64,000 bases of DNA from Candidatus Latescibacterota bacterium (lineage in GTDB: Bacteria; Latescibacterota; UBA2968). The first letter of the stretch is position 1. The number at the start of each line of letters is the position of its first letter. The stretch covers positions 1,824,001 through 1,888,000 of the forward strand of contig OZ240241.1 of NCBI GenBank assembly GCA_965198115.1, given 5' to 3'. Positions 35,096-51,990 of the stretch are shown in pieces. The notes beneath the pieces were generated by a model that saw only the letters and a program-made list of their open reading frames with translations, was not told the origin of the DNA and searched no databases. The position numbers were made by a program, and so were the translations under genes.

Positions 35096-35299
35096 TAGGC
35101 AGCAGGGAGAAAAACCTAACCTGTCGCTGAAAGTAGTCCTCCGATAGATCGCCTACCGAACCGACGTCGAATCGTTAGAAAAACCGAGGTTGCGTCGTCG
35201 AGACGTAAAGCACTAAATCTGAGTGATACTTCGCCAGCACCTTGGTGCGTTTCAAGATACATTCGGACAATTCCGGGTCGGGCACGTTCAGACTCACGC

Positions 35300-35894
35300 C
35301 CTCCTTTTCGTTCGCCCTCGGCAGAAATGCGCGGTCGTAGCGTCGGACCGCAACCGCCTCGCCGCCGAACGCCTCGGCATAGCATCCGACAAGACGGTCC
35401 CAATCGAAGGCATCCGAACCGAAAGACGCGGCATAGGACTGGAAGCTCGCGGAACAGCCCGAATGAACCTTCTGTGTGTGGAGCGACTCCAGGAACTGGT
35501 CCTGTCGACGCAGGTACACGATTGGGGTGTCGGCGAACCCCGCCGTCACTTCCCTGGCCTGGGTCGCCACCACCGGCGCGTTCTCATAACGTGTGTCGGG
35601 GTCACCAGACAGCTCCTCGTGGCTCACCTGATACGTCGCGTGCGCTCGCCTGGCCACGCGCCGGATCTGGGCCGTCAGCCGGTCGACCAGCTTGGCGTCC
35701 CGCTGACGGGTTCGCATCAGGGCCCGGACGTCGGTTGCATCCAGCGGGATGGGGGCAGCGCCTGCCCGTTTGGGCGCCCGCCTGCTCTCCCAGATCGCGT
35801 GCTGAATAGCGGTCGACCCGGTCTTGTGCGTCCAAATATGGAGCAGCAGGCGGGGTCCCGTACGTGCATCTGAATCAGGCGACATACCCAACAC
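35300..35894 (-). pseudogene. Truncated sulfotransferase-like copy A, fused to the LIC12162 remnant
   Basis: LHIWTHKTGSTAIQ...IVYLRRQDQFLESL...RRYD parallels 27464-28531, then switches to LIC12162 sequence near 35300. Confidence 0.82.
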
Positions 35895-35897: not shown

Positions 35898-37475
35898 TCA
35901 GGAACCGCGGATCGCCGCGCGGATCCGCGAGACCGCCCCGTGAATGTCCCGCCGCTCGATCAGGAAGACTTGTGGCAGGGCATAGACTACGACAGAACAG
36001 AAACTCACGTGGAGCGCCCCTCCGGCAGCGAACGAGAGAAGCGGAAGCCCGATCACGTGGGAGGCGAGCCGGGTCGCGCCCAGGGCGGACAGACCGAACA
36101 CGACGATGCACGCGAGCTGATGCCGAAGAAGGGGCCAGAACTCCAGGCTCAGATATCGGGTGCTGAACCAGAGTCGCACATTCGAGAACGCAGCGGCGGC
36201 GACGACGGTCTTGAGCGCCAATCCCACGGCCCCCAGGCTGAGCCCATACCAGGACGTCGGCGCCAGAAGCCAAACCGTCAGCGCGAGCCGGAAGGCCATC
36301 TGCCACAGTCCCAGATCCTTGTGCAACCGTGTCTGCGCGGTCCCGTAGTAGAGTGCACCCAGCATCTGCGAGTACGACCGGAAGAGCGGGTGGATACACA
36401 TCAACGACACCGCCAACCCGGCCTGGGCATACGCAGAGCCACCCAACAACACCGATACGTTTCCCCCTTGTGACGCCATAAACAGCCCAATCAGCGCAGC
36501 AAGGGCGAAAACCACGGGCACGTAGCGGGCAAACAGGCGGGCCATGGCCTCGGTATCCTCTTGCCCGTGGGCTTTCGAGAACTCTCGCATCAGCAGCGGG
36601 GTCAGGGACAACGAGAAGAACGAGCAGAGCAGCCCGACGTCCTGGGACAGGGCAAACACGCCCTGCTCCGCCGACCCGTGGAGTTTCTGGAGCAACCAAC
36701 GCTCCACCACGGTCGTCAGGAATCCCGCGACCGTATAGACGACTAACGGCGAGGAATACGCGTAGAACTCCCTCACGTACCGGGCAGCCTCCGGCCGGTC
36801 GATTCTACCGAGCGAGAACAGGACGTGCCCGTCGCTTAGCACGATCCGTGCCCAGCCGATACACAGGAAAACCAGCAGCAGATAGTGGTAGATGAAGTAC
36901 GTCCACAGGCTGCGGTCCGCGGTGCGAAACACGGCGACTACGAGGACAATGCTCAGGAGCCCCCGATAGACTCTCGTCCGCTCTCCGGCGATAGTGAGAC
37001 CGTAAGCATCGATGTGGTGGTTGAGCAACGCGCTGAGCGCACCCAGCACACCCCAGCCGAGCCCCATCCAGACGTATCCGGATTCCTGCCCCGGCCACAC
37101 CCAGGCCCCCAATCCAGCCCACTGGACCCCGAGAAGCAGGAGCGAGGAGACCGCCGCGACCCCGACGAAGAACGTCCAGTAGAACCGGACTAGCCCCGTC
37201 TCGTCGGGCCGTTGGCTGATCTTGGTGTAGAAGCACAGCGGCGTTCCCATGCTCAGGAGGGACCACATCTCCGTGAAGAACCGGGAGAGAAAGCTGAAGT
37301 CCCCGTAAGCCATCGGGCCCAAGGACCGTGGCACCAGGGCGACCGCCACGAACCGGGCCGCGCCGCCAAGGAGACCGGCGCCCAGTTTGGACAGATACCG
37401 CGAAGAGAGCGGGCTCTCCTCTCCAGCTTCAGACACGTCTGCGGCCCGTAGGAAGGAACGGCCGCTGCAGGCCAC
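35898..37475 (-). CDS. Wzx/MOP-superfamily oligosaccharide flippase (intact copy)
   Basis: PRSLGPMAYGDF near the N-terminus and hydrophobic segments throughout. Start probably the GTG near 37436. Confidence 0.85.
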   Translation of the reverse strand: MACSGRSFLRAADVSEAGEESPLSSRYLSKLGAGLLGGAARFVAVALVPRSLGPMAYGDFSFLSRFFTEMWSLLSMGTPLCFYTKISQRPDETGLVRFYWTFFVGVAAVSSLLLLGVQWAGLGAWVWPGQESGYVWMGLGWGVLGALSALLNHHIDAYGLTIAGERTRVYRGLLSIVLVVAVFRTADRSLWTYFIYHYLLLVFLCIGWARIVLSDGHVLFSLGRIDRPEAARYVREFYAYSSPLVVYTVAGFLTTVVERWLLQKLHGSAEQGVFALSQDVGLLCSFFSLSLTPLLMREFSKAHGQEDTEAMARLFARYVPVVFALAALIGLFMASQGGNVSVLLGGSAYAQAGLAVSLMCIHPLFRSYSQMLGALYYGTAQTRLHKDLGLWQMAFRLALTVWLLAPTSWYGLSLGAVGLALKTVVAAAAFSNVRLWFSTRYLSLEFWPLLRHQLACIVVFGLSALGATRLASHVIGLPLLSFAAGGALHVSFCSVVVYALPQVFLIERRDIHGAVSRIRAAIRGS

Positions 37476-39237
37476 GCTGGACTTCCCTCCTCAGGAAGCG
37501 CACCCACTGTCGGGGCCACTCACGGTCGGCCTTCGCATACCGGTCGACGAATCGCTCGCGGGCCCTCTGCACCTCGCACGACCACCACCAGGATGGGTCC
37601 TGCTGGATGCGGCTGGCGGCTTCCGTCGGGTCGTGCAAGAGTACGCCAGACGCACGGAGCCTGTCGAAGAACGGCTGTGCTTCCGGCCGCTCCTCCCACG
37701 CTTCCCTGGACCACACAAGCACCGTTGGGACGTTCGACACGAGCGCCTCCAGCACCATCGTGCCACAATGATCGATCACCAGCAGGGCGTGCTTCCTGAG
37801 ACGGTCCGCTGACCGTTTCCCGTCGTCCCACATCAGGTTCGGCACCGCCTCGGTGATCCGATCGCGCACGCACTGGTCGTAGTCCGACGCGAACGGACAG
37901 TAGACGATCCTCGAGACGACGTGGTCGGGCAAAGCCTTGAGGACCTCGATCTGCCGGCCGAAGTAGGTTTCCGCCTGATCCCCTACCGGGGCGACGTTGA
38001 ACCGGCTGAGAAACCGCGAATGCGCGGAAGAAACGAACAGAATGGTCTCGGCTGGAGCAGCGTGCGCCCGTGGGTTGGGCCTCAGGATCTCCGACAGCTC
38101 CGGATCCGGAAGGTTACGTGTTCCTGCCTTCGATCCCGCCCATCCCCAGACCGCGAACACGTCGCTCAACCGTCGCTCGTGGCGTTCGGGAGCGGTGTAC
38201 CGATACTGGCCATAGCCGCCGCCGTGCTGCAAGGCGACCAGACGGGTTCCCCTCCCCGCACGATCGGCGATCACGAATTTGAGGAGGCTGTCGCGATACC
38301 AGCCCGTGGCCGAAACCACGACGGGGGGCACCCGTCTGTAGACCCTGCGGCTCTCTCGCACAGCCTCGGAAAAGCCCTCCAGATAGACCGTCGGCAGGTG
38401 CGAAGGAAGCATCGTCAGCCAGAGCCTCGTGAACTCGTCCGTCCCCGTGAGGTCGCCGAGCGATCTCCGCAGTGCGTGATCCGGACGGGGTTGACCTTGA
38501 GGAAGCGGCGCTTGAGGAATGGGCAACACCCGGAGACCCGAGCCAATCGCGAACCGCGCGTGGATACACAGGTCGCTGTGCATCCCCCACAGCCCCACGT
38601 GCCAGTGCTTCGCCCAGGCCGCTGTCATGATTCGGGACGAGTGGGTAGCTGCCCGCCCCAGGAGGTATCTGACCAAGAGCTTCCACGGCCGCCCGGGCGC
38701 CGGAATCCCGAACGCGTAGTCCTGCGTGCGGAAACGGCACCCGAGAAAAGCCAGGATCTGCGAAGCGATCTGAAGGTTATAGACATCCCTCGAAACGTGC
38801 AGCTGGTAGTCCTTGTAGTCTTGAGGACAGACGAAGGAGGTCGGGGCGAGACACAGCGAATCCAGGTCCGGATACTTGCTGAGTGCGTCCTTTATCATCG
38901 TGTAGCGATCGAACACGACGTGGACGAAATGCACAAGCCACGGACCCAGGAGGATGCGCCAGTAGCGATCGTCCCGACGGATGCCGTGCACCCGGTTCAA
39001 CGCGGACGCAACTGTCGACAGAAGGGACTCCGCCGTTTGGTCGAGTTGCTCGGCGGTCTCGAAGAATCGCACGCGATCGTTCCACGGGTTCCCGAGGACC
39101 TCGTAGTTAAAGCCCTTCAGCCTACCCCGTCGCGAGTAGATCAGACAACTCTTGGTCAGGAACAGGAGGGGCCGACTCACATCCCAGAACTCCTCGAGTG
39201 CCGTCGTGGCCAGAAAGCGTGCCACCCTCTCTACCAC
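37429..39237 (-). CDS. LIC12162-family (TIGR04331) putative transferase
   Basis: FLATTALEEFW, RYWRILLGPWL, LQHGGGYG, LEALVSNVPT. Start approximate. Confidence 0.8.
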   Translation of the reverse strand: MVERVARFLATTALEEFWDVSRPLLFLTKSCLIYSRRGRLKGFNYEVLGNPWNDRVRFFETAEQLDQTAESLLSTVASALNRVHGIRRDDRYWRILLGPWLVHFVHVVFDRYTMIKDALSKYPDLDSLCLAPTSFVCPQDYKDYQLHVSRDVYNLQIASQILAFLGCRFRTQDYAFGIPAPGRPWKLLVRYLLGRAATHSSRIMTAAWAKHWHVGLWGMHSDLCIHARFAIGSGLRVLPIPQAPLPQGQPRPDHALRRSLGDLTGTDEFTRLWLTMLPSHLPTVYLEGFSEAVRESRRVYRRVPPVVVSATGWYRDSLLKFVIADRAGRGTRLVALQHGGGYGQYRYTAPERHERRLSDVFAVWGWAGSKAGTRNLPDPELSEILRPNPRAHAAPAETILFVSSAHSRFLSRFNVAPVGDQAETYFGRQIEVLKALPDHVVSRIVYCPFASDYDQCVRDRITEAVPNLMWDDGKRSADRLRKHALLVIDHCGTMVLEALVSNVPTVLVWSREAWEERPEAQPFFDRLRASGVLLHDPTEAASRIQQDPSWWWSCEVQRARERFVDRYAKADREWPRQWVRFLRREVQRGLQRPFLPTGRRRV

Positions 39238-39899
39238 CTCTGGCGGAGAATCTGGAACGCCTCCGCCGATCGGAGGTTGGCCGCCATCCCGCGACAGGAG
39301 GCCATCACCTTGACCCCTTCGGCGGAGCGGGGGTTCGGAAACGCTCGGGCCTCCTCGACGTAACAGGCCAGAGCCTTCTGCTTCCGCTCCAGAAAGTCCT
39401 CGATATCCACGAAAAAGTTCGGGTGAAAGGCGCACTCCACGAGCGGAGGCGATTGCTCGGTTGAGGAGGGGACCTCGTAGCACGCGACCATCTCCAGCCC
39501 GCTATGCGCGCCGCTGATCGAGCGCAGACTGATCCACCCCGCTTCGAACGCCGACTGGTGGTCCTGGTGCGGGTCGCCGCGGTGGTTGATGTAGATCCTC
39601 TGGGGATCGAAGTCGGCTACGGCGGTCTCGATCACGCGGAGCACGTCCGAAAAGTGATCCCGCAGCCGCTCGTCAGGAAGCCGCGCGAACTCGACATCCT
39701 GGTAGCCCAAGACCTGCTTGGCATCCAGAGCGTTCGACTCCTCCCGCGCCAGACGCGCCTCGTCGAGCTGGTGGTCGTACACCCGGTTCGCCAGGAAGAG
39801 CACCTTGACACGATCGCCGGCCTCGAGGTGCCTGCAGATCGTACCACCGACCCCAAGGACCTCGTCATCCATGTGGGGCGCAATCACCAGGACCTTCAA
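39231..39899 (-). CDS. PIG-L/LmbE-family deacetylase
   Basis: APHMDDEVLG, DPHQDH, YEVPSSTE, FPNPRS. TTG start after GGAG. Confidence 0.9.
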   Translation of the reverse strand: MKVLVIAPHMDDEVLGVGGTICRHLEAGDRVKVLFLANRVYDHQLDEARLAREESNALDAKQVLGYQDVEFARLPDERLRDHFSDVLRVIETAVADFDPQRIYINHRGDPHQDHQSAFEAGWISLRSISGAHSGLEMVACYEVPSSTEQSPPLVECAFHPNFFVDIEDFLERKQKALACYVEEARAFPNPRSAEGVKVMASCRGMAANLRSAEAFQILRQRW

Positions 39900-39955
39900 T
39901 ACACACTCCAGTAAGGCTTGTCGGTCCCGTCGCGCAGGTCCGTGACGGCCGAACG

Positions 39956-40816
39956 TTACGGATAGTAGGCGCTGCACCTCGGGGCGAAGAACGCGTCGAG
40001 CCTATCCCTTGCGTCTTGGGTGATCACCCGCTCGCGCCCGATGATCCGCTCGTCGACAAGCCCGGCTCCCACCTCGGCGCCATCCTCGTAGAATCGGCCG
40101 AGGAAGGCGGCCATGTTCTCCTTCCGCCTTGCCGCCACGGACTCTGCTGGCAGTCCCTCGAGCACCTTGGTCAACGCCCTCGCCTCGACATCCTCGAACA
40201 GCACACCAAGAAATGCCCCTACCCGCTCCATGAAGCACGTCGGAGACGCGACGAGCTCCTCATACTTGACCACCAGCACATCGGGCTCCGAGAACAGCCG
40301 ATGGTAGTAGTCGAGGACCTCGTCGTAGAAGTAATCAGGCAGGAAGATCGGCTTCCGCTTGGGCAGCGCGAAGGGCGTCCGGGACCAGTCGAGATAGTCT
40401 TCGAATGGCAGGCTCCAGAGTCCCTCTCTTACCCAATGCTTGTAGAGAGACTCCAGCAGCGACACCGGATGCCGGAGGACGATCATAATCCTGGGAGAGC
40501 CGAAGGTCTCCCGGATACGCTTCGCCTGGCTGTAGATGCTGCTCGGATTCACGAAGTTCTCGGACGACAGCAGGTTCACCCGATCCGGGCTGAGCAGGGC
40601 TCGGACCCGCTTTGAGATCTCCGGACGTTCCTGCTCAAACCGGTAGTCGTCGAGGTAGTGCAGCTTGATCAGCCAGTCAGGATAGTTCCCGCAACTCCGC
40701 CCAAGGTAATTCAGATTCGGGTGGCCGTTGAACATCACGTCCTGAAGCCAGCTCGAGGCCGCCTTGCCGAATCCGACGTGTATACACAGTCGGCCCGTCT
40801 CAGTCGGTGTCGTCAC
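39956..40816 (-). CDS. Sulfotransferase-like protein
   Basis: IHVGFGKAASSWLQ, LSSENF, VLRHP..LLESLY, KYEEL. Confidence 0.78.
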   Translation of the reverse strand: MTTPTETGRLCIHVGFGKAASSWLQDVMFNGHPNLNYLGRSCGNYPDWLIKLHYLDDYRFEQERPEISKRVRALLSPDRVNLLSSENFVNPSSIYSQAKRIRETFGSPRIMIVLRHPVSLLESLYKHWVREGLWSLPFEDYLDWSRTPFALPKRKPIFLPDYFYDEVLDYYHRLFSEPDVLVVKYEELVASPTCFMERVGAFLGVLFEDVEARALTKVLEGLPAESVAARRKENMAAFLGRFYEDGAEVGAGLVDERIIGRERVITQDARDRLDAFFAPRCSAYYP

Positions 40817-41471
40817 GCGATCCGCCCTGGCTGCCCTCGGCCATCCGTCGCTCGAGGACCTTCTCGGCAAGCCAGAGATCGAAGTCGTCATCGATCTCGA
40901 TATTGCAGTCCCTCGGCACGATCATCGTACCAAGCCGATCACCATACTGTCGTCCTGACCGGATGACCGATGCGTCGACCACGTACACATTCCCGTCATC
41001 ACAGAAGAATCCCTTGACATCCTGACGCCGGTAGACGTCGTGAACCCCGTCCTCGACCTCGCCGAAGGGCTTGTCCTTGCTGATGAACCCGGTCGCCAGA
41101 CAGCTTGGTCTCGTGCTCTCGAACAGAGCGATCGCCCGGTCGATCAACCCGTCGTCGCGTATCGGAGATGTGGGATAGAGGTTCACGAGGATCTCGGCGG
41201 GGCACACGTCGAGGGCGTGGGCCCATACGCTCAGCGAGGTCGCCTCGTCCGTCGCCAGCTCCGGGGGCCGATCCACCACCTCTGCGCCTGTCGACCGCGC
41301 CACGCACGCGATCTCCTCGTCGTCCGTCGAGACGAGAAACCTGTCGAGCCGCGTAGCTTTCTGGGCGGCCTCAATCGTCCAGACGATGAGGGGTTTGCCC
41401 GCGATAGGCTTGACGTTCTTCCTCGGAAGTCCTTTCGATCCGCCGCGGGCGGGGATGAGACCGAGCGTCAA
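40800..41471 (-). CDS. Acylneuraminate cytidylyltransferase (NeuA/PseF/LegF family)
   Basis: IPARGGSKGLPRKN, VSTDDEEI, PTSPIR, IEIDDDFD. Confidence 0.92.
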   Translation of the reverse strand: MTLGLIPARGGSKGLPRKNVKPIAGKPLIVWTIEAAQKATRLDRFLVSTDDEEIACVARSTGAEVVDRPPELATDEATSLSVWAHALDVCPAEILVNLYPTSPIRDDGLIDRAIALFESTRPSCLATGFISKDKPFGEVEDGVHDVYRRQDVKGFFCDDGNVYVVDASVIRSGRQYGDRLGTMIVPRDCNIEIDDDFDLWLAEKVLERRMAEGSQGGSRDDTD

Positions 41472-42416
41472 CAGGCTGTTGGGCTCGCTTTCTCTAAGAC
41501 CACGAAATCATAACCCCCTTCGGGATTATCCCGCTCACTTTCATAAATTGGCAGGAGCAATTCCTTGCAGATAGCAATCCACTCACGCTTGTGCCTGCGC
41601 CGTGATTCTCGTTCCATGGAATTCGCCATGCTGATTAAGACCGGCGAAAGCGGACGCAACCCGATATCCCAGATCTGAAGCACTAAGGGGGAAAGATATT
41701 TGCGGTGTTGGATAGGACGGAGCCCCAACCGACCGGCCAGACCTTCCACCTCGTCAATCGCGAGTTGCCAGAACGTTGAATCTGACCGCCCTTCGATTAA
41801 GACGCTGGAGCAGCCGGGCGTAATCTGGCCAATCCGCGCTTCTGTAGGATGGGCAATAACGTTCGAAATCAAGAGATTGGAGGCACAGAAACGCTCGTCC
41901 ACCAGGACTTAGAACCCTGGCTACCTCCGAAAGACAGTGCTCGGGGTTAGGTAGCCAGTAGAGCATGTTGGAGAAAAGGGACTTGATCGACTCGCTCTCG
42001 AATGGCCAAGTCTCAGCCGCGTCGCCAATTTTGTATTCTCCATACAAGTGGAGGAAGTCGGCCTGTCTTCTGAGGTTCTCCTTGTGATCTAGTGCAAAAT
42101 CGTAGACCCACTCAGGCTCTCGCACAATTTGCTCGGTCGACCCGAACCCTGAGTAGTTATCGTAGATGTCTGCGTTTTCCCAGAAGGCATCTAAATGACC
42201 AGCATTAAGGAACTGATCGTAGTCATGACTGAGGGCTCCCCCCGCACACGTAAAGCTGAACAAGCCGTTTCCGGCTCCCACGTCAAGAGAAGGACCTTCG
42301 ATCGCAAAGCCGCAGTTTCGAACGGCTATGGCGTCCCACAGTGCACTCTCTGGTCGAAGCCATTGCAGGTTGAGGAAGTCCTCAAGGAATGTGTCTGAAT
42401 ACGGATCTGAGCTCAA
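41468..42416 (-). pseudogene. Class I SAM methyltransferase, frameshifted near 41792
   Basis: WLRPESALW, SLDVGAGNG, RVLSPGG in 41754-42416. Continues as GRSDSTFW...IWDIGLRPLSP in 41468-41902. Confidence 0.75.
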
Positions 42417-43492
42417 ACCCCAACCGCCTGTTCACGACCAGCCAGCTGACTGACCTTCGCCTTTCCGCCTCCGACGATCTCGATCTCACCTTCCTCCTCC
42501 GACTCACGAGGCAAATAGCAAGCCTGACAGGCCGAGTAGGCCTCAACTCCGAGAGTCTTCCTGTGCAGTTCCCGAGCTTCACGGAACGCGCGTCCATTCC
42601 AGATCTCCAGAATCGTGGATTCACGCACGTCTCCCATGACGTGATCTTCATAGAGGTCGTTGTGGCAAAGGCAGGCTTCGCCTTCGGCGGTGATGAACAG
42701 ACGCTGCCACGGGACGTGGCAGACGAAGTTCGGCTTGTAGGTGATCTGCTCGGGATCATCCTCGCCCAGATAATCGACGAGCGCCCCGCTCGCGACCATA
42801 TCCACGAAAGGGCCGTACGCATCGAAGAAGGCTTGGGGATCATCCTTGATCGCGGGCCAGACGCCCTGGATTTTCACGACCGGCTTAGCAGATCCGAGTC
42901 GCTCCTTAATCGCCTTGAACGCCTTGAGTTTCTCGATCAGCTCGTCATACTTCGCCGGGTACCGGATCTCGTTGTAGGTTTCACCGATTCCGTCCGCGCT
43001 GATCGTGATCCAGTCCATCCCGATTCGGACGAACTTCTCGAACAGCTCCGGCGTGAGCTTGGTTGCATTCGTGAGCGTAGAAACCTCCCGGATTCCCACC
43101 TCTTTCGCCAAGCGGGCGGCTTCATAGAACTGTGGATGAAGAGATGGCTCTCCCCTGAGGCTTAGCCGAATCGAGAAGACGCCTCCCTTCCCGGCCTCGT
43201 GCATGATCTTCTCGATCAGATCCCAGTTGAGAAGCTGTGCCGTTACGTCCTTTTTGAACCTTTCCGTAATGGTGTAGCACATGGGGCAGCGAAGGTTGCA
43301 AACAGCCGCGAGTTCCATGTCGATGTGCTCGGGATACCGCCTCGGCCATCCGAACCTAGGGAAGTAGTGCCACCGAAAACGGTTTCCGATGTAACCGAGC
43401 AGGTGGCCTTTTCCACGTTTCAGGTGGAATCGAAAACTGTCCAGCTTCGAGGACAACGTGAGCATGTCCCTGTTTATGCTAAAAGTAGCCAC
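42413..43492 (-). CDS. Radical SAM/SPASM-domain protein
   Basis: CNLRCPMC, RGEPSLHP, CHVPW..CLC..GDV..IWNG..CQAC. Confidence 0.9.
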   Translation of the reverse strand: MATFSINRDMLTLSSKLDSFRFHLKRGKGHLLGYIGNRFRWHYFPRFGWPRRYPEHIDMELAAVCNLRCPMCYTITERFKKDVTAQLLNWDLIEKIMHEAGKGGVFSIRLSLRGEPSLHPQFYEAARLAKEVGIREVSTLTNATKLTPELFEKFVRIGMDWITISADGIGETYNEIRYPAKYDELIEKLKAFKAIKERLGSAKPVVKIQGVWPAIKDDPQAFFDAYGPFVDMVASGALVDYLGEDDPEQITYKPNFVCHVPWQRLFITAEGEACLCHNDLYEDHVMGDVRESTILEIWNGRAFREARELHRKTLGVEAYSACQACYLPRESEEEGEIEIVGGGKAKVSQLAGREQAVGV

Positions 43493-43495
43493 CCT

Positions 43496-44515
43496 CTACA
43501 CACCTCTTGATAGCAGCTGTTGTCGAACGATGTCCAGAGTCCTCTGACATCCGTCTCCCGGAACGATCTGTTTCCCCGTCCGCGAGTGCCTACTCAGAAC
43601 GCACGGGTCATCCAGCACCTTAATCGAAGATCGAATGACCTCCAGAGAGGTGTTCAGTCCGTTTCCAGCGCAAATGCCAAAACCTCTCCGTTCGAATTCC
43701 TCGCCCTGAAGTCGCTCGTGCTCATCTTCGTAGAGCACGACCGCAGGTGTCCCTACGCACGCCATCTCGTAGAGCGTGTTGCCGCCCGCGGTGATACCCA
43801 TATCGGAATCAAGCAGAAAATCGCTCAGCTCGGGCGGACACACGTGAGGGTGAATGTGTGATCTCGGTCGCGCGAATTCGAGCACCTCATCCCCAAACTC
43901 GAATCCCGGCCCGATAACCACGTCGACTTGGAGCGATTCTTCATCAGACAGTGATTCCAAGACTCTCATCGTAGTCCGTAACCTGTCGACTCCACCCATC
44001 GAAACGACGATCTTTCGCACGCCTGCGTCGAATGCCCGTTCTTCAAGCCGCAATCTTTGAAACCGCTCGTTCAAGCTCAGGAATTCGGCGCCAGCGAAGA
44101 CTTCGGCCGTCGAACCGGGGTAGTCGTGAAAGGAACGAACGATCGAAGTACTGATGATGACGTCCGGGTTAATCGTCCTTCCACCCAGTTCATCGATGCA
44201 CACAACGCAGCCCGCCCAGTTACGCAGCGCCTGAATCTGTTCCTCCGACACCGAGCGAAAGTTCGTCACCGCGATCCTGGCCCCCTCGGCGCATGGATCT
44301 TCGCCCAGGCGACTCAGCACATCGGGCTCCACCGAGCTGAGTGGACGCGCCCAGTCGGCAATCGGCGCCAAATCGGGGTCTACGTGGGCGTATCCTACGG
44401 CTTCCAAGCACGACCACGTGGCTGCTTGAAAAAGGCCGCCCATCTCCACTATATGTCCGGATCCGATCTCGCTAGTGCCCTCAGATAGGAGGACCACGCG
44501 CTGGGACTCGGACAC
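43496..44515 (-). CDS. PseG/SpsG-like nucleotide-sugar hydrolase (GT-B fold)
   Basis: IGSGHI, VSMGGVD, VVIGPGF, AGGNTLYEMACVGTP. Confidence 0.8.
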   Translation of the reverse strand: MSESQRVVLLSEGTSEIGSGHIVEMGGLFQAATWSCLEAVGYAHVDPDLAPIADWARPLSSVEPDVLSRLGEDPCAEGARIAVTNFRSVSEEQIQALRNWAGCVVCIDELGGRTINPDVIISTSIVRSFHDYPGSTAEVFAGAEFLSLNERFQRLRLEERAFDAGVRKIVVSMGGVDRLRTTMRVLESLSDEESLQVDVVIGPGFEFGDEVLEFARPRSHIHPHVCPPELSDFLLDSDMGITAGGNTLYEMACVGTPAVVLYEDEHERLQGEEFERRGFGICAGNGLNTSLEVIRSSIKVLDDPCVLSRHSRTGKQIVPGDGCQRTLDIVRQQLLSRGV

Positions 44516-45546
44516 TAAAGATCGTCCCACGTGATCGGATGGTCCGCCGCGACGTCGCGCCTGAGCGTTCGTCCCAAAGCGATATCCAGGTTCTGCGGAG
44601 CGATACCGTGGCCCGGTCTCTTGATGATCACGTCATCGGCCGACAGGACGTCATCTCTGCTGAGATCTTGAGTGGCGACGAGGCCTTTCCTCGTGTCGGA
44701 TCGCATCTCCGTCTCGGTGGCCGCCGGATTCTTGAATCCGGTACCCAGCATAGACTCCGCCTCCCGTACACTCTCGACGAGGCGTTTCATATCACCCGGA
44801 TCTGCCGAGAAGAAGGCGTCTGGAACATCGAGGTCTCGGCTCAAGACAAAGTGCTTCTCGATCGCCACGGCGCCGAGGGCGACAGCGGCGACCGCGGCCG
44901 TATTCGAACGCGTGTGATCGGACAGACCGACGTGGACGGGAAACGCCCTCGAATACATATCGATCACGCGCAGATCGAGCTGGGACGGGTCTTCGATCGG
45001 GTAATTGGACACGCACTGGAGAACGACTAGGTCCTCGCTCCCCGCTTCGCGATAGGCACGAACGGCGTTGTCCACCTCGGCGAGTGTGGCCATCCCCGTC
45101 GAGAAAATGACCGGCTTTCCAAGCTCACCGACGTGACGAATGAAGGGAAAGTTCGTCAGATCGTCCGACCCGACCTTGTGCACGGACACACCCACACGTT
45201 CCAGCAGGGCTACGTCATCCGGATGACTCGGCGTCGAAAAAGGTACCAGCCCCCGTTCCCTGCAGCGGTCAAAGATGAGACGATGAAGGTCCTCGGAAAT
45301 CTCGTACTGAAGGAATTCCTCGAACTGGTTGACACCGCCTGCTTCGTTCGGGAAGTCCACGTCTCTTGTCGTGATCGTTTCCGCGCGAAACGTCTGGATC
45401 TTCAGCGCGTCCACACCGCATTCAGCTGCAGCGTCGACCGACTCGAGCGCTTCGGCTTCGCTGCTGAAGTTGTAGCCGAGCTCCGCGATCACGAAAACAG
45501 GATGGCCGGGGCCGATGGTCTTTCCTTCGATGTGTATGTCACGCAT
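44515..45546 (-). CDS. Nonulosonic acid synthase (NeuB/PseI/LegI family) with SAF domain
   Basis: FVIAELGYN, KVGSDDLTN, FSTGMAT, QCVSNYP, GLSDHT, IEKHF, KRPGHGI. Confidence 0.93.
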   Translation of the reverse strand: MRDIHIEGKTIGPGHPVFVIAELGYNFSSEAEALESVDAAAECGVDALKIQTFRAETITTRDVDFPNEAGGVNQFEEFLQYEISEDLHRLIFDRCRERGLVPFSTPSHPDDVALLERVGVSVHKVGSDDLTNFPFIRHVGELGKPVIFSTGMATLAEVDNAVRAYREAGSEDLVVLQCVSNYPIEDPSQLDLRVIDMYSRAFPVHVGLSDHTRSNTAAVAAVALGAVAIEKHFVLSRDLDVPDAFFSADPGDMKRLVESVREAESMLGTGFKNPAATETEMRSDTRKGLVATQDLSRDDVLSADDVIIKRPGHGIAPQNLDIALGRTLRRDVAADHPITWDDL

Positions 45547-46258
45547 GTTCAGAAAATGCGCCGTCCAAAACACACCTGTAGCAGTCATAAACAAGGTTCG
45601 CGTTCGATCCGCTGAACAAGAAATCAAGGGCTGACATGTGTGAGATGAACGGCTCGTTGGTCTGAGGATAGGTCGGATGAATGAAATCGTGATAGACGAC
45701 TCGGATCCCTCTCGTCTTGAAGGCGTCGAAGTCCAGATAGTTCCTTCCGTCAGGTCCTGAGATGTAGACGGACGCCCCCGTCGCGAGGCACAGCCGAAGG
45801 ATGAGATCGCTTCCGCTGCACTCGGGTTTTGCGATCTCCGAGGAGAGTCGCGTTACTGTATCGATTCCCAGCGCGAGTGCGAGTCTCCGTGAAAGTGACA
45901 GGTTCAGGTCGACGAGTCGCTCGTGATGGGTCTCGATGACCTCGGAGATCCACGGGAAACACGTTGCGAAACCGGGTGCCGATCCGTAGTGCGTAGAAAG
46001 CGCCGTCAGGTATTTCCTGCGCCAGTTGCTCTGTTCGTCGATCAGGACCTCGTTAATCCTCTGAGTGTAGCGTCCCTTCGTCTGCACGGGCACGGTGATC
46101 CACTGCGTTCCGTCCCTGGTTCTTATTTTGTTGCGGTTCTCGAAGTAGCGCTTCTTGAACTGCACATCGTCCAGGTGCACGAATAGATCGACCTGGCTCA
46201 TCTTGTTAAAGTATCCGATCCAAGGCGCGTGCTCGGGCTGTTGTATGGCGACGATCAT
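45539..46258 (-). CDS. WbqC-family protein
   Basis: IQQPEHAPWIGYFNK, DDVQF, NRNKI, YISGPDGRNYL, HPTYPQ. Confidence 0.9.
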   Translation of the reverse strand: MIVAIQQPEHAPWIGYFNKMSQVDLFVHLDDVQFKKRYFENRNKIRTRDGTQWITVPVQTKGRYTQRINEVLIDEQSNWRRKYLTALSTHYGSAPGFATCFPWISEVIETHHERLVDLNLSLSRRLALALGIDTVTRLSSEIAKPECSGSDLILRLCLATGASVYISGPDGRNYLDFDAFKTRGIRVVYHDFIHPTYPQTNEPFISHMSALDFLFSGSNANLVYDCYRCVLDGAFSEHA

Positions 46259-46278
46259 TGAGGGTCTTAGTAGGTTGT

Positions 46279-47232
46279 TTAGAGCCCGCTCCGAATATGG
46301 TCCGCTCCCTTTTCCTCTTCCTCCTGCCTCTGAGCCCGCTCTCTGTACCAGTCAATGTACCGACGGACCCCCTCTTCGAAAATCGTCTGCGGGACCCAGC
46401 CCAGCTCCTGCTTCGCACGCTCGCTGGAGATCTCCTTGCCCGAGAAATCCCCGGGCCGGGCTGGGACGTGTTCGATCTCCACGTTGCCGAGAATCTTCTT
46501 GATGGTTTCCGCTATCTGTAGAATGGAAACCTTCTCGGAGCCGTCGAGATTGTATATGCGGTGCTTCTCAGTGCATTTCAGCGCCTTGACGTTCCCGAGC
46601 GCCAGGTCCTCGACGTAGACGAACTTGCGGAACTGAAGACCGTCACCCGCAATCGTCAGGGGTTCGCCGTTCAGGGCTTTGTTGACGAAGATCGGAACGA
46701 CAGCGCCGTCGCGGGCTCGCGGGCCGTAGGGAATCCCATAGCGAAGCACTGTGGTCTTGATGTCATACAGTTCCGCATAGCTTTTGGAGTAGTACTCGCC
46801 GACGATCTTGGTTGCCGTATAAAGATGTGATGGAGAGTGCAGTGGAGTCGATTCATCCACGTCACTGCTGTCTGCCTCGCTATATACCCACGTTGTACTG
46901 CCGTAGATAACCTGGCGAATGTCCGTCCGCCGCGCCGCCTCGAGCACATTGATGGTCCCGCGGACGTTGATCTCCTCCGAGTAGTGCGGCGCTTCGAAGA
47001 CATCCTTGACGTCCGCGATCGCCGCAAGGTGAAACACGGCATAGACGCCTGACATGGCGCCGATCAGAGCCTGGAGATCGAGAATGCTGCCAGGCACATA
47101 CTCGACGTCGGGTCGCTTCAGATACGTGTTATGAGTAAGGTCGAAAACCCGTACTTCGATTTCGTTGTCTCGTAACTTGTCGACAACGTGGGACCCGATG
47201 AATCCCAGTCCCCCCGTAACCAGAACCTTCAC
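46279..47232 (-). CDS. NAD-dependent epimerase/dehydratase
   Basis: GTG start after GAGGAGG. TGGLGFIG, YTATK, YGPR, RPGD. Confidence 0.9.
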   Translation of the reverse strand: MKVLVTGGLGFIGSHVVDKLRDNEIEVRVFDLTHNTYLKRPDVEYVPGSILDLQALIGAMSGVYAVFHLAAIADVKDVFEAPHYSEEINVRGTINVLEAARRTDIRQVIYGSTTWVYSEADSSDVDESTPLHSPSHLYTATKIVGEYYSKSYAELYDIKTTVLRYGIPYGPRARDGAVVPIFVNKALNGEPLTIAGDGLQFRKFVYVEDLALGNVKALKCTEKHRIYNLDGSEKVSILQIAETIKKILGNVEIEHVPARPGDFSGKEISSERAKQELGWVPQTIFEEGVRRYIDWYRERAQRQEEEEKGADHIRSGL

Positions 47233-47251
47233 TGTCCCTCCTCGATCTTCG

Positions 47252-48271
47252 TTATTCCGCGCCGTGGTAGTAGAGCGGCACGCACCAGTGGTTCTCGGCG
47301 AGCCAGTCCGTGTTCGGCAGCACCGTGTCGTGACCCAGAATGCGATGGCAGGGCTGGCCATAGACCTTGCCCGTCGACTTCTCGATGGGGTCGAACGTGA
47401 TGTACTTGTATAAACCCGACGTCATCCCGTCGGGAAGCACCAGTCTGCCCGGATGCGCGTGGTCCAGTTCGCTCCGCGCGTAGTCGTTCTTCCATCGTAC
47501 GATCTCCTCCATCCGCTCCGCCTGGACCACGCCGACGGCCGCCGTGATCTCGCTCATGCGGAAGTTCAGGCCGGTCACTTCGTGCTCGAACTTCCCGTAA
47601 TTCCTGAACTTGCGGGCATAGGCCTCGAGCTCGCTGTCCCCTGTCACCAGCATGCCGCCTTCGCCTGTGGAGACCGTCTTCGTGGCGTAGAAGGAGTACA
47701 CGCCGGCATCCCCCCACGTCCCGGGCTTCTTGCCGTTCCAGTCGGCGCCGTGGGCGTGGGCGCAGTCCTCGAGCAGCCTGATATCATTGTCCCTGCAGTA
47801 GGCCGCGATCTTTTCGATCTCGAAGGCGATGTGCCCCCCGATGTGCACGACCCACGCGGCTTTCGGTCTGTGCATCTCTGCTTTCCGAACGAAGTCGTCG
47901 AACGAGACGCACAGGTCGTCCCGGTTACAGTCCACGAAGACGACCTCGCCTCCAGCGCTGAGGACCGCGTTCGGCGTGGCCATAAACGTGTTGGACGGAC
48001 AGAGCACCTTGTGGCCGGTTACTTCGTAGAAACTGAGTGCCGCAAGAGCGCCACCCGCCCAGCTCGAGAAGGCGACGGATGGCAGTCCGTTCCACGCGCC
48101 CCACTGGGCCTCGAATTGCTCAGTCAGCCGTCCCTCGGACCAGCGCTGGGATTCGAACACCTCATCGATCAAACCGTGCACACGGTCGCGATCTCTCTGA
48201 TCGAACCCGATTCTGAACTGGCTGGCATCCACCGCTTGAATCGTCTGAGTCACGTTCCCCTCGCCGTTCAC
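47252..48271 (-). CDS. DegT/DnrJ/EryC1/StrS-family sugar aminotransferase (short form)
   Basis: EDCAHAHG, YSFYATKTVSTGEGG, GLNFRMSE. Confidence 0.9.
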   Translation of the reverse strand: MNGEGNVTQTIQAVDASQFRIGFDQRDRDRVHGLIDEVFESQRWSEGRLTEQFEAQWGAWNGLPSVAFSSWAGGALAALSFYEVTGHKVLCPSNTFMATPNAVLSAGGEVVFVDCNRDDLCVSFDDFVRKAEMHRPKAAWVVHIGGHIAFEIEKIAAYCRDNDIRLLEDCAHAHGADWNGKKPGTWGDAGVYSFYATKTVSTGEGGMLVTGDSELEAYARKFRNYGKFEHEVTGLNFRMSEITAAVGVVQAERMEEIVRWKNDYARSELDHAHPGRLVLPDGMTSGLYKYITFDPIEKSTGKVYGQPCHRILGHDTVLPNTDWLAENHWCVPLYYHGAE

Positions 48272-48888
48272 GAAAGCTTCCAGATCAGCCGTTCCTCAAC
48301 GCCGACATCGATCAGTTGGTGCTCGGAATCGTCGAGGTTTTCCAGGTCCGTGATGAGCACCGCATCGAATTCCAGTCCGGAGAGCTGCGCCTTCCGTCGG
48401 ACTGGAAGCCCGAAGCAGTCCTGGCCGTCTGTCTTGTCGTCGACCACCCCAACCAGGCGAATGTCCGCCAGCTCGGATTCCACGCCCACCAGAATGCGGA
48501 CGATGTCGCTTGCTCCATAGAGCAACACATTCCGTACACCGTCGGCCGCCATGCTTCGGATGCAGTCGCGGAGCTTCGACTCGACACGCGAATAGAAGTC
48601 TAACGTGAATCGCAGGAAGCCGTACGTCAGCTGCGACTTCATCTTCATCCCCGCGGGCGTGAGGATATACAGATACGCGCGCTTGTCTGGATTCTGGCGC
48701 ACACGCTGAAACTTGACGTAACCCTTTTCCAGGAGCTTGTGCAGGCAGTAGTTGACCTTCTTGAGGTTGAGCCCTGTCTCTTTCGCGAGCTCGCGCTGCG
48801 TCGTGTTCTCGCGATTCTCAAGGGCCTCCATGACGGCGAGCAGGCCGAGGTCGTCTCTTGTCTGAGAGCTTTGTTTGAGGATTTCCAT
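48268..48888 (-). CDS. EPS-associated MarR-like winged-helix regulator with C-terminal Rossmann-like domain
   Basis: TQRELAKETGLNL.KVNYCL..L..KGYVK...YLYILTPAG; VLLYGA. Confidence 0.85.
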   Translation of the reverse strand: MEILKQSSQTRDDLGLLAVMEALENRENTTQRELAKETGLNLKKVNYCLHKLLEKGYVKFQRVRQNPDKRAYLYILTPAGMKMKSQLTYGFLRFTLDFYSRVESKLRDCIRSMAADGVRNVLLYGASDIVRILVGVESELADIRLVGVVDDKTDGQDCFGLPVRRKAQLSGLEFDAVLITDLENLDDSEHQLIDVGVEERLIWKLS

Positions 48889-48893
48889 GGGTC

Positions 48894-49835
48894 TCAGGCC
48901 GCGCGCGGGAGAAGGTCGGAAACCGTACGGGCAACACCTTCCTGGACGGACGTCGTAGGCGACCAATCCAACGTCTTCATCGCCAGCGCGTTGTCCAGCA
49001 CACTTCTCGACAGATCTCCGGCCCGAGGGCCGCACTCGTCGGGCTGAACGCCGGGCCTGTCGAGTGCCTGGACGACAAGACTCAGAAGATCCCTCGTCGT
49101 CGTCTCGACGGACGTCGAGATGTTGACCGTGGTACCGTCCCCGGCCGATAAGGCCGCCACGTTGGCATCGGCCACTTCACCAACGTAGACGTAGTCCCGC
49201 GTACACCCTTCATCTCCCGCTGCTCTGGCGCCATAGAGGGTGGGGCGGGATCCACCGAGGATCGCATCGCAGAAAAGCGCCACGACGCCGGCTTCGCCCG
49301 CTGCGCTCTGCCGGGGTCCGTAGACGTTGCTGTATCTCAGGATGGTGTAGGCCAGACCGTGATGGCGCTCGAAGAACTGCACATACGACTCACAGGTCGC
49401 CTTCGAGATCCCATAGGGCGTCGACGGACGGAAAGGTGCGCCCTCTGGGGTCGGGAAAACATCCGCATCCCCGTAGACCGTTCCCCCCGACGAGGCGAAA
49501 ATGACTTTCTCCACACCCGCGGCAACGCTCTGCTGGAGAACGTTTATCGTGCCGGCGATGTTGATGTCGGCGTCCTCGGCGGGATGCCTAACGGAGTAGG
49601 AAACGCTGAGCTGAGCGGCCTGGTGATTCACCAGTTCCGGTTGAAAGTCCAAGAACAGATCACCCAGGTCCGCGGATCTGATGTCCAGTTCGGAGAACCG
49701 GCAACCCGGGTTCACTTTTTCCCGGCGACCGCTGGACAGGTCGTCCACGACGATTACCTCGTGGCCCAGCCTCACGTAGGCGTCGACCACGTGAGACCCG
49801 ATGAAACCCGCGCCACCGGTAACCAAGATCCTCAT
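48894..49835 (-). CDS. UDP-glucose 4-epimerase-like NAD-dependent epimerase
   Basis: TGGAGFIGSH, HQAAQ, SSGGTVYG, YGISK, NVYGPRQ. Confidence 0.9.
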   Translation of the reverse strand: MRILVTGGAGFIGSHVVDAYVRLGHEVIVVDDLSSGRREKVNPGCRFSELDIRSADLGDLFLDFQPELVNHQAAQLSVSYSVRHPAEDADINIAGTINVLQQSVAAGVEKVIFASSGGTVYGDADVFPTPEGAPFRPSTPYGISKATCESYVQFFERHHGLAYTILRYSNVYGPRQSAAGEAGVVALFCDAILGGSRPTLYGARAAGDEGCTRDYVYVGEVADANVAALSAGDGTTVNISTSVETTTRDLLSLVVQALDRPGVQPDECGPRAGDLSRSVLDNALAMKTLDWSPTTSVQEGVARTVSDLLPRAA

Positions 49836-49859: not shown

Positions 49860-49913
49860 TGTAATGTTTCCAATGGTAACATTACACAAGCCCTGTGTCA
49901 AGTGGATGTTACC
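49860..49913 (-). promoter_or_regulatory. Sigma70-type promoter with overlapping inverted-repeat operator
   Basis: Minus strand TTGACA (49901-49896), 17 bp, TACCAT (49878-49873) with extended TG. Inverted repeat tgtaatgtt-N9-aacattaca at 49860-49886. Confidence 0.75.
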
Positions 49914-49949: not shown

Positions 49950-50978
49950 TCACACGCGCTGCGCTACAATGCGCAGGTTTCCGGCCAGACCCAGTCTGCT
50001 TGGCAGCAGGTCCACGAGAACGAAAAATGCCATCAGAACGGGGTTGTTCAGGTTGAATGCGGGGGCCAACCACGATCCCGCACTACTGTCCTGAAGGGCA
50101 TGGTTGATCGACCAAAGCCAGATGATGGGTGCCACGTAGGTTGAGAGCGACAGCACTCGGAAGCCGTGGCTCCTCAGTAGATGTTCGACCGTGGCCTTGT
50201 TCCAAAGGGTCCAGTGTCTCGGAAAGTAGAATCCCGCCCATTGGGGATCGCGAAAGAAACGTCTGTCCCAAGAATCGACATTCGGCGTCTCGATCAGCAG
50301 GTGTCCGCCCAGCCGCATAGCTCGCCAGACCTTCTTCAGTACCTCAGATGGGTCGGCAACGTGCTCGAGGACCTGCAAGATCGTAACGACATCGAATGCG
50401 TCTCGACGCAGATCTGAGTCCTCGATTCGCCCGGGCAGACTGCGGAATCCCTGGGCACGCAGTTTTTCAGTCGCATGGGGCCCGAAGTCATTGCCAACCA
50501 GGTTGCTGGGTGGAACGCCCAGCGAACGGAAGACTTCCAGAGTGAACCCGTCCCCGCAACCGATATCCAGAACGTTCAGCCCCTCCCTCTCGGCGTACCC
50601 TGGAAGGATCCGGCCGATTTTACGTCGATCTCGGTAAGCTCGAAACCGCCGCACGAGTGGATTGCCGGCCTTGCTGAAGCTGTAGGAGTAGTAGTCTGCT
50701 GAGTATAGCTTTTCCAGTGACTCCGCTGTCGGTCGTGGATTCAGGTAGTAGGTGGCGCAATCGCAACACGCTACCATTCTGAATCGCTGTTCCTTCGGAC
50801 ATCCTCCCTCATAGTCCCTTCCGACTGCCACTATTCTGAAGTCCGTGCCTCCACACGCGGGGCACGCTACTTCCTCAACGGCCAGCTTTTTGACCAAGTC
50901 ATTTGACTCAAACGGTTCACTCGCTGTGGGATGATCGCACAAAAGTCGAGTGCTATCGGCCTGATGCTGGACCGGCAT
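49950..50978 (-). CDS. Class I SAM methyltransferase with N-terminal Zn ribbon
   Basis: CPACG..CCDC..YLNPRP, LDIGCGDG, VLEHVADP, ETPN, PRH. Start uncertain. Confidence 0.88.
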   Translation of the reverse strand: MPVQHQADSTRLLCDHPTASEPFESNDLVKKLAVEEVACPACGGTDFRIVAVGRDYEGGCPKEQRFRMVACCDCATYYLNPRPTAESLEKLYSADYYSYSFSKAGNPLVRRFRAYRDRRKIGRILPGYAEREGLNVLDIGCGDGFTLEVFRSLGVPPSNLVGNDFGPHATEKLRAQGFRSLPGRIEDSDLRRDAFDVVTILQVLEHVADPSEVLKKVWRAMRLGGHLLIETPNVDSWDRRFFRDPQWAGFYFPRHWTLWNKATVEHLLRSHGFRVLSLSTYVAPIIWLWSINHALQDSSAGSWLAPAFNLNNPVLMAFFVLVDLLPSRLGLAGNLRIVAQRV

Positions 50979-51939: not shown

Positions 51940-51990
51940 GACCGAGTCACTCCCACGCCGTTTTCATCTGGCAACCGACACTACCACACC

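What the first reader, a model, noticed from the sequence alone, without database searches (positions are those of the whole stretch)
37429..49835. Non-canonical nonulosonic-acid pathway: candidate new sialic-acid-like sugar system
Seen: an almost fully intact run behind its own promoter: epimerase, MarR-like regulator, short DegT, epimerase, WbqC, NeuB, PseG-like, radical SAM/SPASM, broken methyltransferase, NeuA, sulfotransferase, PIG-L, LIC12162 transferase, then the flippase. Established: pseudaminic/legionaminic pathways use a PseB/LegB dehydratase and a PseH/LegH N-acetyltransferase, and Neu/Leg pathways use NeuC/LegG. I recognise no acetyltransferase, NeuC or PseB-type gene in the window. 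The NeuB also has ELGYN where EIGxNH is usual. WbqC proteins are linked to glycyl substitution of amino sugars. Inference: a nonulosonate with atypical N-acylation (possibly glycyl), further altered by radical SAM chemistry, deacylation and sulfation, and transferred by the LIC12162 protein. This is the best candidate for an undescribed system in the window.
Basis: partly seen in the sequence, partly recalled or inferred. Interest (0 to 1): 0.7.

Follow-up and report, generated by a model that had tools for sequence, protein, structure and literature searches.

The report
Radical-SAM-linked sialic-acid-like sugar pathway
This nearly intact gene cluster holds a sialic-acid-synthase relative from its own separate branch, which sits beside one particular radical SAM enzyme in bacteria and archaea, and it likely makes an undescribed, likely glycine-bearing, nine-carbon surface sugar that two cultured rhizobia could be tested for.

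Summary
All listed genes are present; only the methyltransferase is frameshifted. The genome's single NeuB keeps its catalytic residues but falls below the NeuB and PseI cut-offs and forms its own clade (100/99). No NeuC, LegB, PseH or NeuD passes its cut-off in the genome. Of 14 related loci of 9 kb or more, 13 carry the same BtrN-like radical SAM enzyme, 14 a PIG-L deacetylase and a PseG-like hydrolase, 11 WbqC; 0 of 26 other NeuB loci carry that radical SAM enzyme. The clade has an invariant Asp at the published C2-specificity site (Gly in Neu/Leg, Phe in Pse), and this Asp tracks PIG-L and WbqC even without the radical SAM gene. Best reading (0.5): N-acetyl is swapped for glycyl or a free amine before condensation, and the radical SAM enzyme remodels one carbon; the chemistry is inferred, untested. 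Sulfation is not conserved (0 of 14). The module occurs in cultured Neorhizobium galegae HAMBI 1141 and Rhizobium sp. WYJ-E13. My paper searches found no description; this scan noted a similar block before in another genome. New variant of a known kind.

The parts
49873..49901 (-). sigma-70-type promoter-like site of the run
   Evidence: 10 of 12 consensus match with TG; a match, not shown to work
48894..49835 (-). GalE-like SDR epimerase; head of the glycan locus, not conserved with the module
   Evidence: PF01370, TIGR01179 below cut-off; 54% orthologue 27 kb upstream of the module in G042
48268..48888 (-). MarR-family EPS-associated regulator
   Evidence: TIGR04176 84.9 bits, cut-off 88
47252..48271 (-). 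short DegT-family PLP enzyme; likely C4 aminotransferase, optional front end
   Evidence: PF01041; PseC model 139 bits against cut-off 423.5; large family also found without NeuB
46279..47232 (-). extended SDR with GSTTWVY and YxxxK; likely oxidase/epimerase partner, not a classic 4,6-dehydratase
   Evidence: PF01370; 70-76% identical orthologues keep S[ST]TWVY; best solved relatives are C4 epimerases
45539..46258 (-). WbqC-like putative glycyl transferase
   Evidence: PF08889 230 bits; in 11 of 14 clade loci; no solved relative
44515..45546 (-). NeuB-family PEP-condensing synthase with SAF domain; F27, S107, D128 clade
43496..44515 (-). PseG/SpsG-like nucleotide-sugar hydrolase
   Evidence: TIGR03590 91.5 bits, cut-off 153.55; GxGH motif; 14 of 14 clade loci
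42413..43492 (-). Twitch-type radical SAM enzyme, BtrN-like fold; core partner of the NeuB clade
   Evidence: PF04055+PF13186; Cys65/69/72 and 258/276/322/325 conserved; Z 20.4, rmsd 2.5 over 207 to BtrN
41468..42416 (-). class I methyltransferase, frameshifted near 41772-41803; accessory
   Evidence: homologue in 4 of 14 clade loci
40800..41471 (-). NeuA/PseF-like CMP-ulosonate cytidylyltransferase
   Evidence: PF02348; TIGR03584 110 bits, cut-off 205.7
39956..40816 (-). sulfotransferase-like protein; local accessory, not conserved
   Evidence: weak PF00685 hit E 5.7e-7; 0 of 14 clade loci
39231..39902 (-). PIG-L family de-N-acetylase with intact HxDD and xDH metal motifs
   Evidence: PF02585; H10, D12, D13, D114, H115 invariant in 16 aligned; 14 of 14 clade loci
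37429..39225 (-). LIC12162-family putative transferase; likely the ulosonate transferase
   Evidence: TIGR04331 378 bits, cut-off 225; 5 of 14 loci; an MptE/DUF115-like gene lies in L027, L097, L098 instead
35898..37475 (-). Wzx-like flippase
   Evidence: hydrophobic 525-aa ORF without family hit; 42% homologue next to LIC12162 in L229

Best explanation
This is a conserved module around a NeuB-family synthase that forms its own clade apart from the Neu, Leg and Pse synthases, and it likely makes a CMP-activated nine-carbon sialic-acid-like surface sugar whose C5 N-acetyl group is likely replaced by glycyl (or a free amine) and in which one carbon is likely remodelled by the radical SAM enzyme. 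Shown: gene content, separate clade, kept catalytic residues, invariant Asp128, co-occurrence. Inferred order: (1) an interchangeable front end prepares an NDP-HexNAc; here the second SDR and the short DegT likely install a C4 amine, and because that SDR lacks the acid/base residue of 4,6-dehydratases C6-OH would be kept (about 0.35); (2) PIG-L removes the C2 N-acetyl; (3) WbqC puts glycyl on the freed amine; (4) the radical SAM enzyme, often with the SDR next to it, oxidises one sugar carbon and the SDR re-reduces it; my single best guess is C2 inversion, standing in for the absent NeuC/LegG epimerase (about 0.3); (5) the PseG-like protein releases the nucleotide; (6) NeuB condenses the cationic hexosamine with PEP, Asp128 pairing with the amine and Ser107 making room; (7) NeuA adds CMP; (8) the LIC12162 protein transfers it to a lipid-linked repeat that the flippase exports.
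For: Clade of 19 rows, 100/99, sister to a 5-row Asp128 group, both apart from PseI and SiaC-type rows; references pass NCBIfam cut-offs (2 of 2 PseI, 11 of 11 LegI/NeuB-type) while 0 of 9 clade members tested do. E22, K49, Q51, K124, Y182, H211, E230, H232, D243, R310 invariant in 119. PMC7371886 names a Gly (Neu, Leg) or Phe (Pse) position as the C2 N-acyl discriminator; that column is Gly in 93% of LegI-type, Phe in 83% of PseI-type and Asp in 100% of clade rows and 119 of 119 close homologues. Double dissociation: 3 of 3 Asp128-only loci have WbqC and PIG-L and no radical SAM gene; the one radical SAM locus with an ordinary His27/Ser128 NeuB (L232) has neither WbqC nor PIG-L match. Radical SAM gene in 13 of 14 clade loci, 0 of 26 others; of 15 genomes in three phylum samples that hold it, 14 have a NeuB within 4.5 kb and 11 the clade type. 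Loci with LegB lack LegG/NeuC and have PseG plus the radical SAM gene. 2-N-glycyl on a hexosaminuronate has precedent (PMC8550257).
Against: No biochemical data. WbqC as glycine transferase is only a putative annotation (PMC7253198) and its precedent is the C4 amine of Qui4N. WbqC is missing from 3 of 14 clade loci (L015, L027, and L148 cut at a contig start). PIG-L plus WbqC is a general cassette also found without NeuB. Asp128 has one origin on the tree, so its link to WbqC/PIG-L is one event, not many. Two loci carry the full cassette with a SAF-less NeuB that has Thr/Ser at 128 (Glu at 107 instead). The radical SAM family has no eighth invariant Cys, which known radical SAM epimerases use as H donor (recalled); an SDR is directly adjacent in only 6 of the 13 loci. 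No ligand-bound model was built, so the Asp128-amine contact is inferred from a published homology model.
Confidence: 0.5

Rival explanations
1. WbqC replaces PseH/LegH: it glycylates the C4 amine (N7 of the product), while PIG-L and the radical SAM enzyme act later on the CMP-sugar, giving a free N5 amine and an oxidised or inverted C4, C7 or C8.
For: WbqC is annotated beside Qui4N genes; L026 has PseB-like, PseC-like, WbqC and PseG genes and no acetyltransferase match; a deacetylase acting at the CMP-sugar level is proposed for Ca. Kuenenia (SugarBase preprint); the many invariant Arg residues of the radical SAM family would suit a CMP-ulosonate.
Against: L098 and L182 hold WbqC with no DegT match in the fetched 25 and 20 kb, so no C4 amine is at hand; post-synthesis tailoring does not explain the invariant Asp at the C2 site of the synthase.
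Confidence: 0.25
2. The NeuB makes ordinary Neu, Leg or Pse with missing steps supplied elsewhere in the genome; the extra genes modify other sugars of the repeat unit.
For: One CapD/PglF-type dehydratase lies 330 kb away; weak GNAT, hexapeptide and non-hydrolysing 2-epimerase-like matches exist; B. subtilis SpsE is the best solved relative and works with a PseG-like protein (recalled).
Against: Separate clade and changed C2 site; no NeuC, LegB, PseH or NeuD over cut-off; the radical SAM family was found almost only beside NeuB.
Confidence: 0.12
3. The radical SAM enzyme makes or breaks a carbon-carbon bond or removes ammonia or water (DesII/BlsE type), so the product has a different backbone (deoxy, branched, or eight or ten carbons).
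For: BlsE and DesII are close structural matches (Z 18.3 and 18.7); unassigned ten-carbon ulosonates exist in Magnetospirillum gryphiswaldense; His27 to Phe and Phe107 to Ser/Gly follow the radical SAM gene.
Against: No B12 domain or methyl-transfer features; no link of this module to M. gryphiswaldense was tested; the other enzymes are ordinary hexosamine-pathway families.
Confidence: 0.1

Closest known systems
Pseudaminic acid pathway (PseB, PseC, PseH, PseG, PseI, PseF)
   Same: PseG-like hydrolase, NeuB-family synthase, cytidylyltransferase, a DegT aminotransferase; no hydrolysing 2-epimerase.
   Different: No PseB or PseH; synthase outside PseI with Asp where PseI has Phe; conserved radical SAM, PIG-L and WbqC genes.
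Legionaminic acid pathway (LegB, LegC, LegH, LegG, LegI, LegF) and Neu5Ac pathway (NeuC, NeuB, NeuA)
   Same: Synthase scores higher on NeuB_NnaB than on PseI; rhizobial members of the clade use a true LegB and a nucleotidyltransferase.
   Different: No LegG/NeuC, no LegH; Asp where these have Gly; PseG-like hydrolase plus radical SAM enzyme in their place.
Bacillus subtilis Sps crust pathway (SpsE, SpsF, SpsG)
   Same: SpsE is the best solved sequence relative (E 2e-54); many clade loci use an SpsF-type cytidylyltransferase with a PseG-like hydrolase.
   Different: SpsE has GINH at the F27 site; its pathway uses an acetyltransferase and no radical SAM enzyme (recalled).
Ca. Kuenenia stuttgartiensis free-amine/formyl Leg cluster (SugarBase preprint)
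   Same: A deacetylase inside a nonulosonate cluster giving a non-acetyl amine.
   Different: That cluster has legG and a formyltransferase; 'radical' does not occur in the preprint's main text.
Twitch radical SAM enzymes of amino-sugar antibiotics (BtrN, BlsE, DesII)
   Same: Partial barrel with CxxxCxxC and a four-Cys auxiliary site; BtrN is the top fold match.
   Different: About 20% identity or less; set in surface-glycan loci; reaction unknown.

Membership tests
NeuB-family synthase | NeuB TIM barrel plus SAF domain | tested here: met
   PF03102 248 bits, PF08666 52 bits; model pLDDT 94
NeuB-family synthase | metal, PEP and catalytic residues (equivalents of E25, Q55, K129, Y186, H215, E234, R314) | tested here: met
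   aligned, invariant in 119 rows; list from PMC6795526
NeuB-family synthase | PEP condensation with a sugar aldehyde | not testable with these tools
   needs an assay
Pseudaminic acid pathway | PseI-clade synthase with Phe at the C2 site | tested here: not met
   257 bits against cut-off 340; outside the PseI clade; Asp128
Pseudaminic acid pathway | PseB inverting dehydratase | tested here: not met
   window SDR scores 49 bits against 407.75; the genome's one strong PF02719 match reads as CapD/PglF-type by its sequence (type assignment recalled)
Pseudaminic acid pathway | PseH N-acetyltransferase | tested here: not met
   best genome match 41 bits against 93.1
Pseudaminic acid pathway | PseG hydrolase | tested here: inconclusive
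   91.5 bits against 153.55; GxGH motif present
Legionaminic/neuraminic acid pathway | NeuC/LegG hydrolysing 2-epimerase | tested here: not met
   best genome match 52 bits against 235.9
Legionaminic/neuraminic acid pathway | LegB dehydratase and LegH/NeuD acetyltransferase | tested here: not met
   LegB best 161 against 475; NeuD best 137.5 against 160.8, far from the locus
Legionaminic/neuraminic acid pathway | NeuB_NnaB synthase with Gly at the C2 site | tested here: not met
   285.6 bits against 399.65; Asp128
Twitch radical SAM (BtrN-like) | CxxxCxxC plus four-Cys auxiliary motif and BtrN-like fold | tested here: met
Radical SAM epimerases (NeoN/HygY type) | extra conserved Cys as hydrogen donor (criterion recalled) | tested here: not met
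   only seven Cys columns are invariant; a Cys in 89 of 125 rows is Ala in the window protein
PIG-L de-N-acetylase | HxDD and xDH metal-binding motifs | tested here: met
WbqC glycyl transferase | glycyl transfer to an amino sugar | not testable with these tools
   Pfam membership met; function only a putative annotation

The most novel reading that the evidence does not exclude
The first radical-SAM-dependent route to a sialic-acid-like sugar: a fourth synthase lineage, spread through bacteria and archaea, that condenses a cationic N-glycyl hexosamine and yields a zwitterionic ulosonate whose stereochemistry or oxidation pattern differs from Neu, Leg, Pse, Aci and Fus.
Probability: 0.3. Interest if true: 0.82.

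Novelty: new variant of a known kind. Interest (0 to 1): 0.62.

Why it matters
Nonulosonate products are predicted from NeuB clade and gene content, and automatic annotation calls these proteins Neu, Leg or SpsE synthases. This clade breaks the published Gly/Phe rule with a third state and travels with a radical SAM family of at least 1,637 sequences (E up to 1e-40) that has no assigned reaction. If the reading holds it adds a new sugar, a new radical reaction on a nucleotide sugar and the first assay system for WbqC. Two cultured rhizobia carry a compact version, so it can be tested now.

Tried and rejected
Sulfation as part of the system: rejected (0 of 14 loci). First epimerase and MarR as module parts: rejected. 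Short DegT as a marker: rejected; 5,937 of 8,000 candidates pass E 1e-60 and it occurs without NeuB in Terrarubrum and Anabaena. Viral contigs: no relative of the radical SAM family. No solved relative for WbqC, the PseG-like protein or LIC12162 by sequence. Atlas look-up of a radical SAM homologue gave only generic clusters. No RNA holder listed. The wide profile search of the radical SAM family was not obtained, so family size rests. A link to the C10 ulosonates of M. gryphiswaldense was not tested. Clade NeuB without the radical SAM gene: G168 and G115 (both at contig edges), L025 (cut upstream), G719 and G594 (only more distant paralogues at 292 and 283 bits in the locus). Paper searches: WbqC + nonulosonic 0; nonulosonic + radical SAM 0; nonulosonic acid + glycyl 2, one read as a passage and about a mannuronate, one seen only in the listing; one search listed 12 of 14, none on this module by title; one search was uninformative. 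The library lacks most subscription journals, where O-antigen structures are printed, and two reviews were not held, so a glycyl nonulosonate may be in print unseen. The preprint's supplements could not be seen and may list gene clusters.


Full report
Observation. The 14 genes and the flippase are on the minus strand in the order given, behind a sigma-70-type match at 49901-49873. Only the methyltransferase is broken, by a frameshift near 41772-41803; same-sample contigs agree, which is not independent. The 8.43-Mb single-contig genome has one NeuB, one NeuA-like and one PseG-like gene. NeuC, LegB, PseH and NeuD models all stay under their cut-offs genome-wide. One strong PF02719 match at 1.543 Mb reads as a CapD/PglF-type dehydratase in another glycan locus (type from recall) and could in principle supply a 4-keto sugar in trans.

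The synthase. It scores 285.6 on NeuB_NnaB (cut-off 399.65) and 257.3 on PseI (340.25). Its 119 best homologues are 53-67% identical. A quick tree of 117 rows and a careful tree of 57 chosen rows (LG+G4) put it in a clade of its own (19 rows, 100/99), sister to five rows that share Asp128 but keep His27 (joint branch 96/90). PseI-type and SiaC-type rows are separate starred groups; the LegI-type rows do not form one group in the careful tree, but none lies inside the clade. The references are real: both PseI references and 11 of 11 LegI/NeuB-type rows tested pass their cut-offs, 0 of 9 clade members and 0 of 4 sister-group members do (L079 misses by 1 bit). Catalytic and metal residues are invariant. 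Three pocket changes mark the clade: His to Phe27, Phe to Ser/Gly/Ala107 (Phe112 of the Neisseria enzyme, listed as ligand-contacting in PMC6795526, passages seen, and conserved with few exceptions in PMC8208679, parts 2-3 read) and Gly to Asp128. PMC7371886 (passages seen) names the Gly/Phe position as the discriminator of the C2 N-acyl group; in my alignment that column is Gly in 93% of 62 LegI-type rows, Phe in 83% of 6 PseI-type rows and Asp in all 40 clade rows. An acidic residue there suggests a cationic C2 group (inference).

The conserved module. Loci were gathered by NeuB, not by neighbours. Among those of 9 kb or more, after dropping duplicates and same-genome flanks (L014, L016, L044, L081, L187-L189) and two loci without NeuB (L115, L116), 14 have the F27+D128 synthase: radical SAM 13, PIG-L 14, PseG-like 14, WbqC 11, LIC12162 5, close second SDR 4, close short DegT 2, methyltransferase 4, sulfotransferase 0. 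Three Asp128-only loci: WbqC 3, PIG-L 3, radical SAM 0. Twenty-six others: radical SAM 0, WbqC 1, PIG-L 3 (blastp E 1e-5 to window proteins, radical SAM profile over 400 bits). The one exception, L148, starts at a contig edge. In plasmids, 151 records hold a NeuB; the radical SAM gene matches fully in 2, which are the two best-scoring NeuB records, Rhizobium sp. WYJ-E13 and Neorhizobium galegae HAMBI 1141, each with the genes within 600 bases. Top homologue lists of the two proteins share 15 of 119 exact contig lengths against 1.1 by chance. The reverse test on whole genomes: the radical SAM profile hit 5 of 168 genomes of the own phylum, 1 of 401 strongly (3 at E 1e-60) in the archaeal phylum of G168, and 9 of 381 in the phylum of G569. 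Of these 15, 14 have a NeuB within 4.5 kb (G101's contig is 3.6 kb), 11 of the clade type (G123 by Phe27 only), 2 a SAF-less NeuB inside the same full cassette, 1 an ordinary-looking NeuB without WbqC or PIG-L. Against: five clade synthases lack the strong radical SAM match (see Tried and rejected). Kin are not independent, and Asp128 arose once.

What varies. The front end: LegB plus nucleotidyltransferase plus an SDR in the rhizobia and L027; PseB-like plus PseC-like in L026; short DegT plus the STTW-type SDR here; no dehydratase or DegT match in 20 kb of L182. The activator: NeuA or SpsF type. The transferase slot: LIC12162 or an MptE/DUF115-like gene. Where WbqC is missing, an ATP-grasp/HAD pair (L027) or a carbamoyltransferase (L015) is present. 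So the fixed core is deacetylase, radical SAM enzyme, hydrolase, synthase, CMP transferase, usually WbqC.

The radical SAM enzyme. Model pLDDT 95. BtrN is first by Foldseek (E 2e-12) and tied first by VIA (Z 20.4, rmsd 2.5 over 207) with SkfB; DesII and BlsE follow; a shared fold shows no function. Seven Cys are conserved, three for the SAM cluster and four auxiliary, with no eighth, and Arg26, 38, 109, 113, 177 and 264 are invariant, fitting an anionic nucleotide sugar. This favours a dehydrogenase or lyase over a stand-alone epimerase (criterion recalled). An SDR is its direct neighbour in 6 of 13 loci. Since LegB-type loci lack LegG and the PseB-type sister group lacks the radical SAM gene (L072, L186), I guess an oxidation-reduction that inverts C2, about 0.3.

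Mechanism. De-N-acetylation, glycylation, radical remodelling, nucleotide release, condensation, CMP activation, transfer and flipping, as set out in Best explanation. Glycyl is preferred over a free amine at condensation because a free 5-amino ulosonate tends to cyclise on its own keto group (own knowledge). Evidence for WbqC is annotation only (PMC7253198, passages; N-acetylglycine in E. coli O121, PMC7685785, one passage); 2-N-glycyl sugars exist (PMC8550257, one passage).

Comparison and novelty. It works like a Pse/Leg/Sps pathway but fails membership of each on tested features. Searches for WbqC with nonulosonic and for nonulosonic with radical SAM returned 0 papers. The SugarBase preprint (introduction, section 12 and passages read; supplements not seen) and PMC8157484 (passages) describe free-amine and longer-chain ulosonates but not this gene set in what I read. 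PMC4758666, PMC7848895 and PMC3210612 (passages) added nothing.

Verdict. Real, conserved, uncharacterised in the papers I could search; a new variant of nonulosonate biosynthesis. That the product is non-standard: about 0.8. That it has a cationic C5 group set before condensation: about 0.5. Interest 0.62.

Noticed in passing
window 28550-35315: Remnants of a second LIC12162 gene (42-46% identity) and a second flippase (59-81%) broken up by several IS elements just downstream of the intact pair.
   Followed up: partly
L229:8289-9164 and L230:10997-11881: The same full cassette (short DegT, 71% SDR, PIG-L, NeuA, radical SAM, WbqC, PseG, methyltransferase, LIC12162) with a SAF-less NeuB that has Phe27, Glu at 107 and Thr/Ser at 128; the acidic residue seems to have moved within the pocket.
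   Followed up: partly
G000:C1:3508390-3519665; L188; L189: A second WbqC + PIG-L pair with DegT genes, glycosyltransferases and no NeuB, conserved in G042 and G115; IS-interrupted in this genome.
   Followed up: partly
L014:11232-16052: G042 has, next to the module, a second NeuB with an iron-type alcohol dehydrogenase, DegT, HAD phosphatase and NeuA, resembling the KdnA/KdnB 8-amino-Kdo pair joined to a phosphate-type synthase (resemblance recalled).
   Followed up: no
L115:6739-14763: The short DegT family (63% identical) sits among MoaD, ThiF, SufE and TIM-barrel genes in Terrarubrum flagellatum, so this large family may not be a plain sugar aminotransferase.
   Followed up: no
L116:8968-13976: Anabaena cylindrica plasmid: short DegT, SDR (42% to the second SDR), sulfotransferase, GalE and NUDIX without NeuB; the window's sulfotransferase may belong with the DegT/SDR pair.
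   Followed up: no
window 21905-26288: DprE1- and DprE2-like genes (below cut-off) and a B12-binding radical SAM gene in two ORFs (24717-25304, 25470-26288) in the downstream glycan locus.
   Followed up: no
window 49950-54376: Upstream on the same strand: methyltransferase, fatty-acid-desaturase-like gene, methyltransferase-GT2 fusion and an epimerase-family (GDP-fucose-synthase-like by sequence) gene.
   Followed up: no
window 1-15200: Two asparagine-synthase-type amidotransferases, a carbamoyltransferase, glycosyltransferases and another sulfotransferase: the whole window is one heavily decorated surface-glycan region with many IS elements.
   Followed up: no
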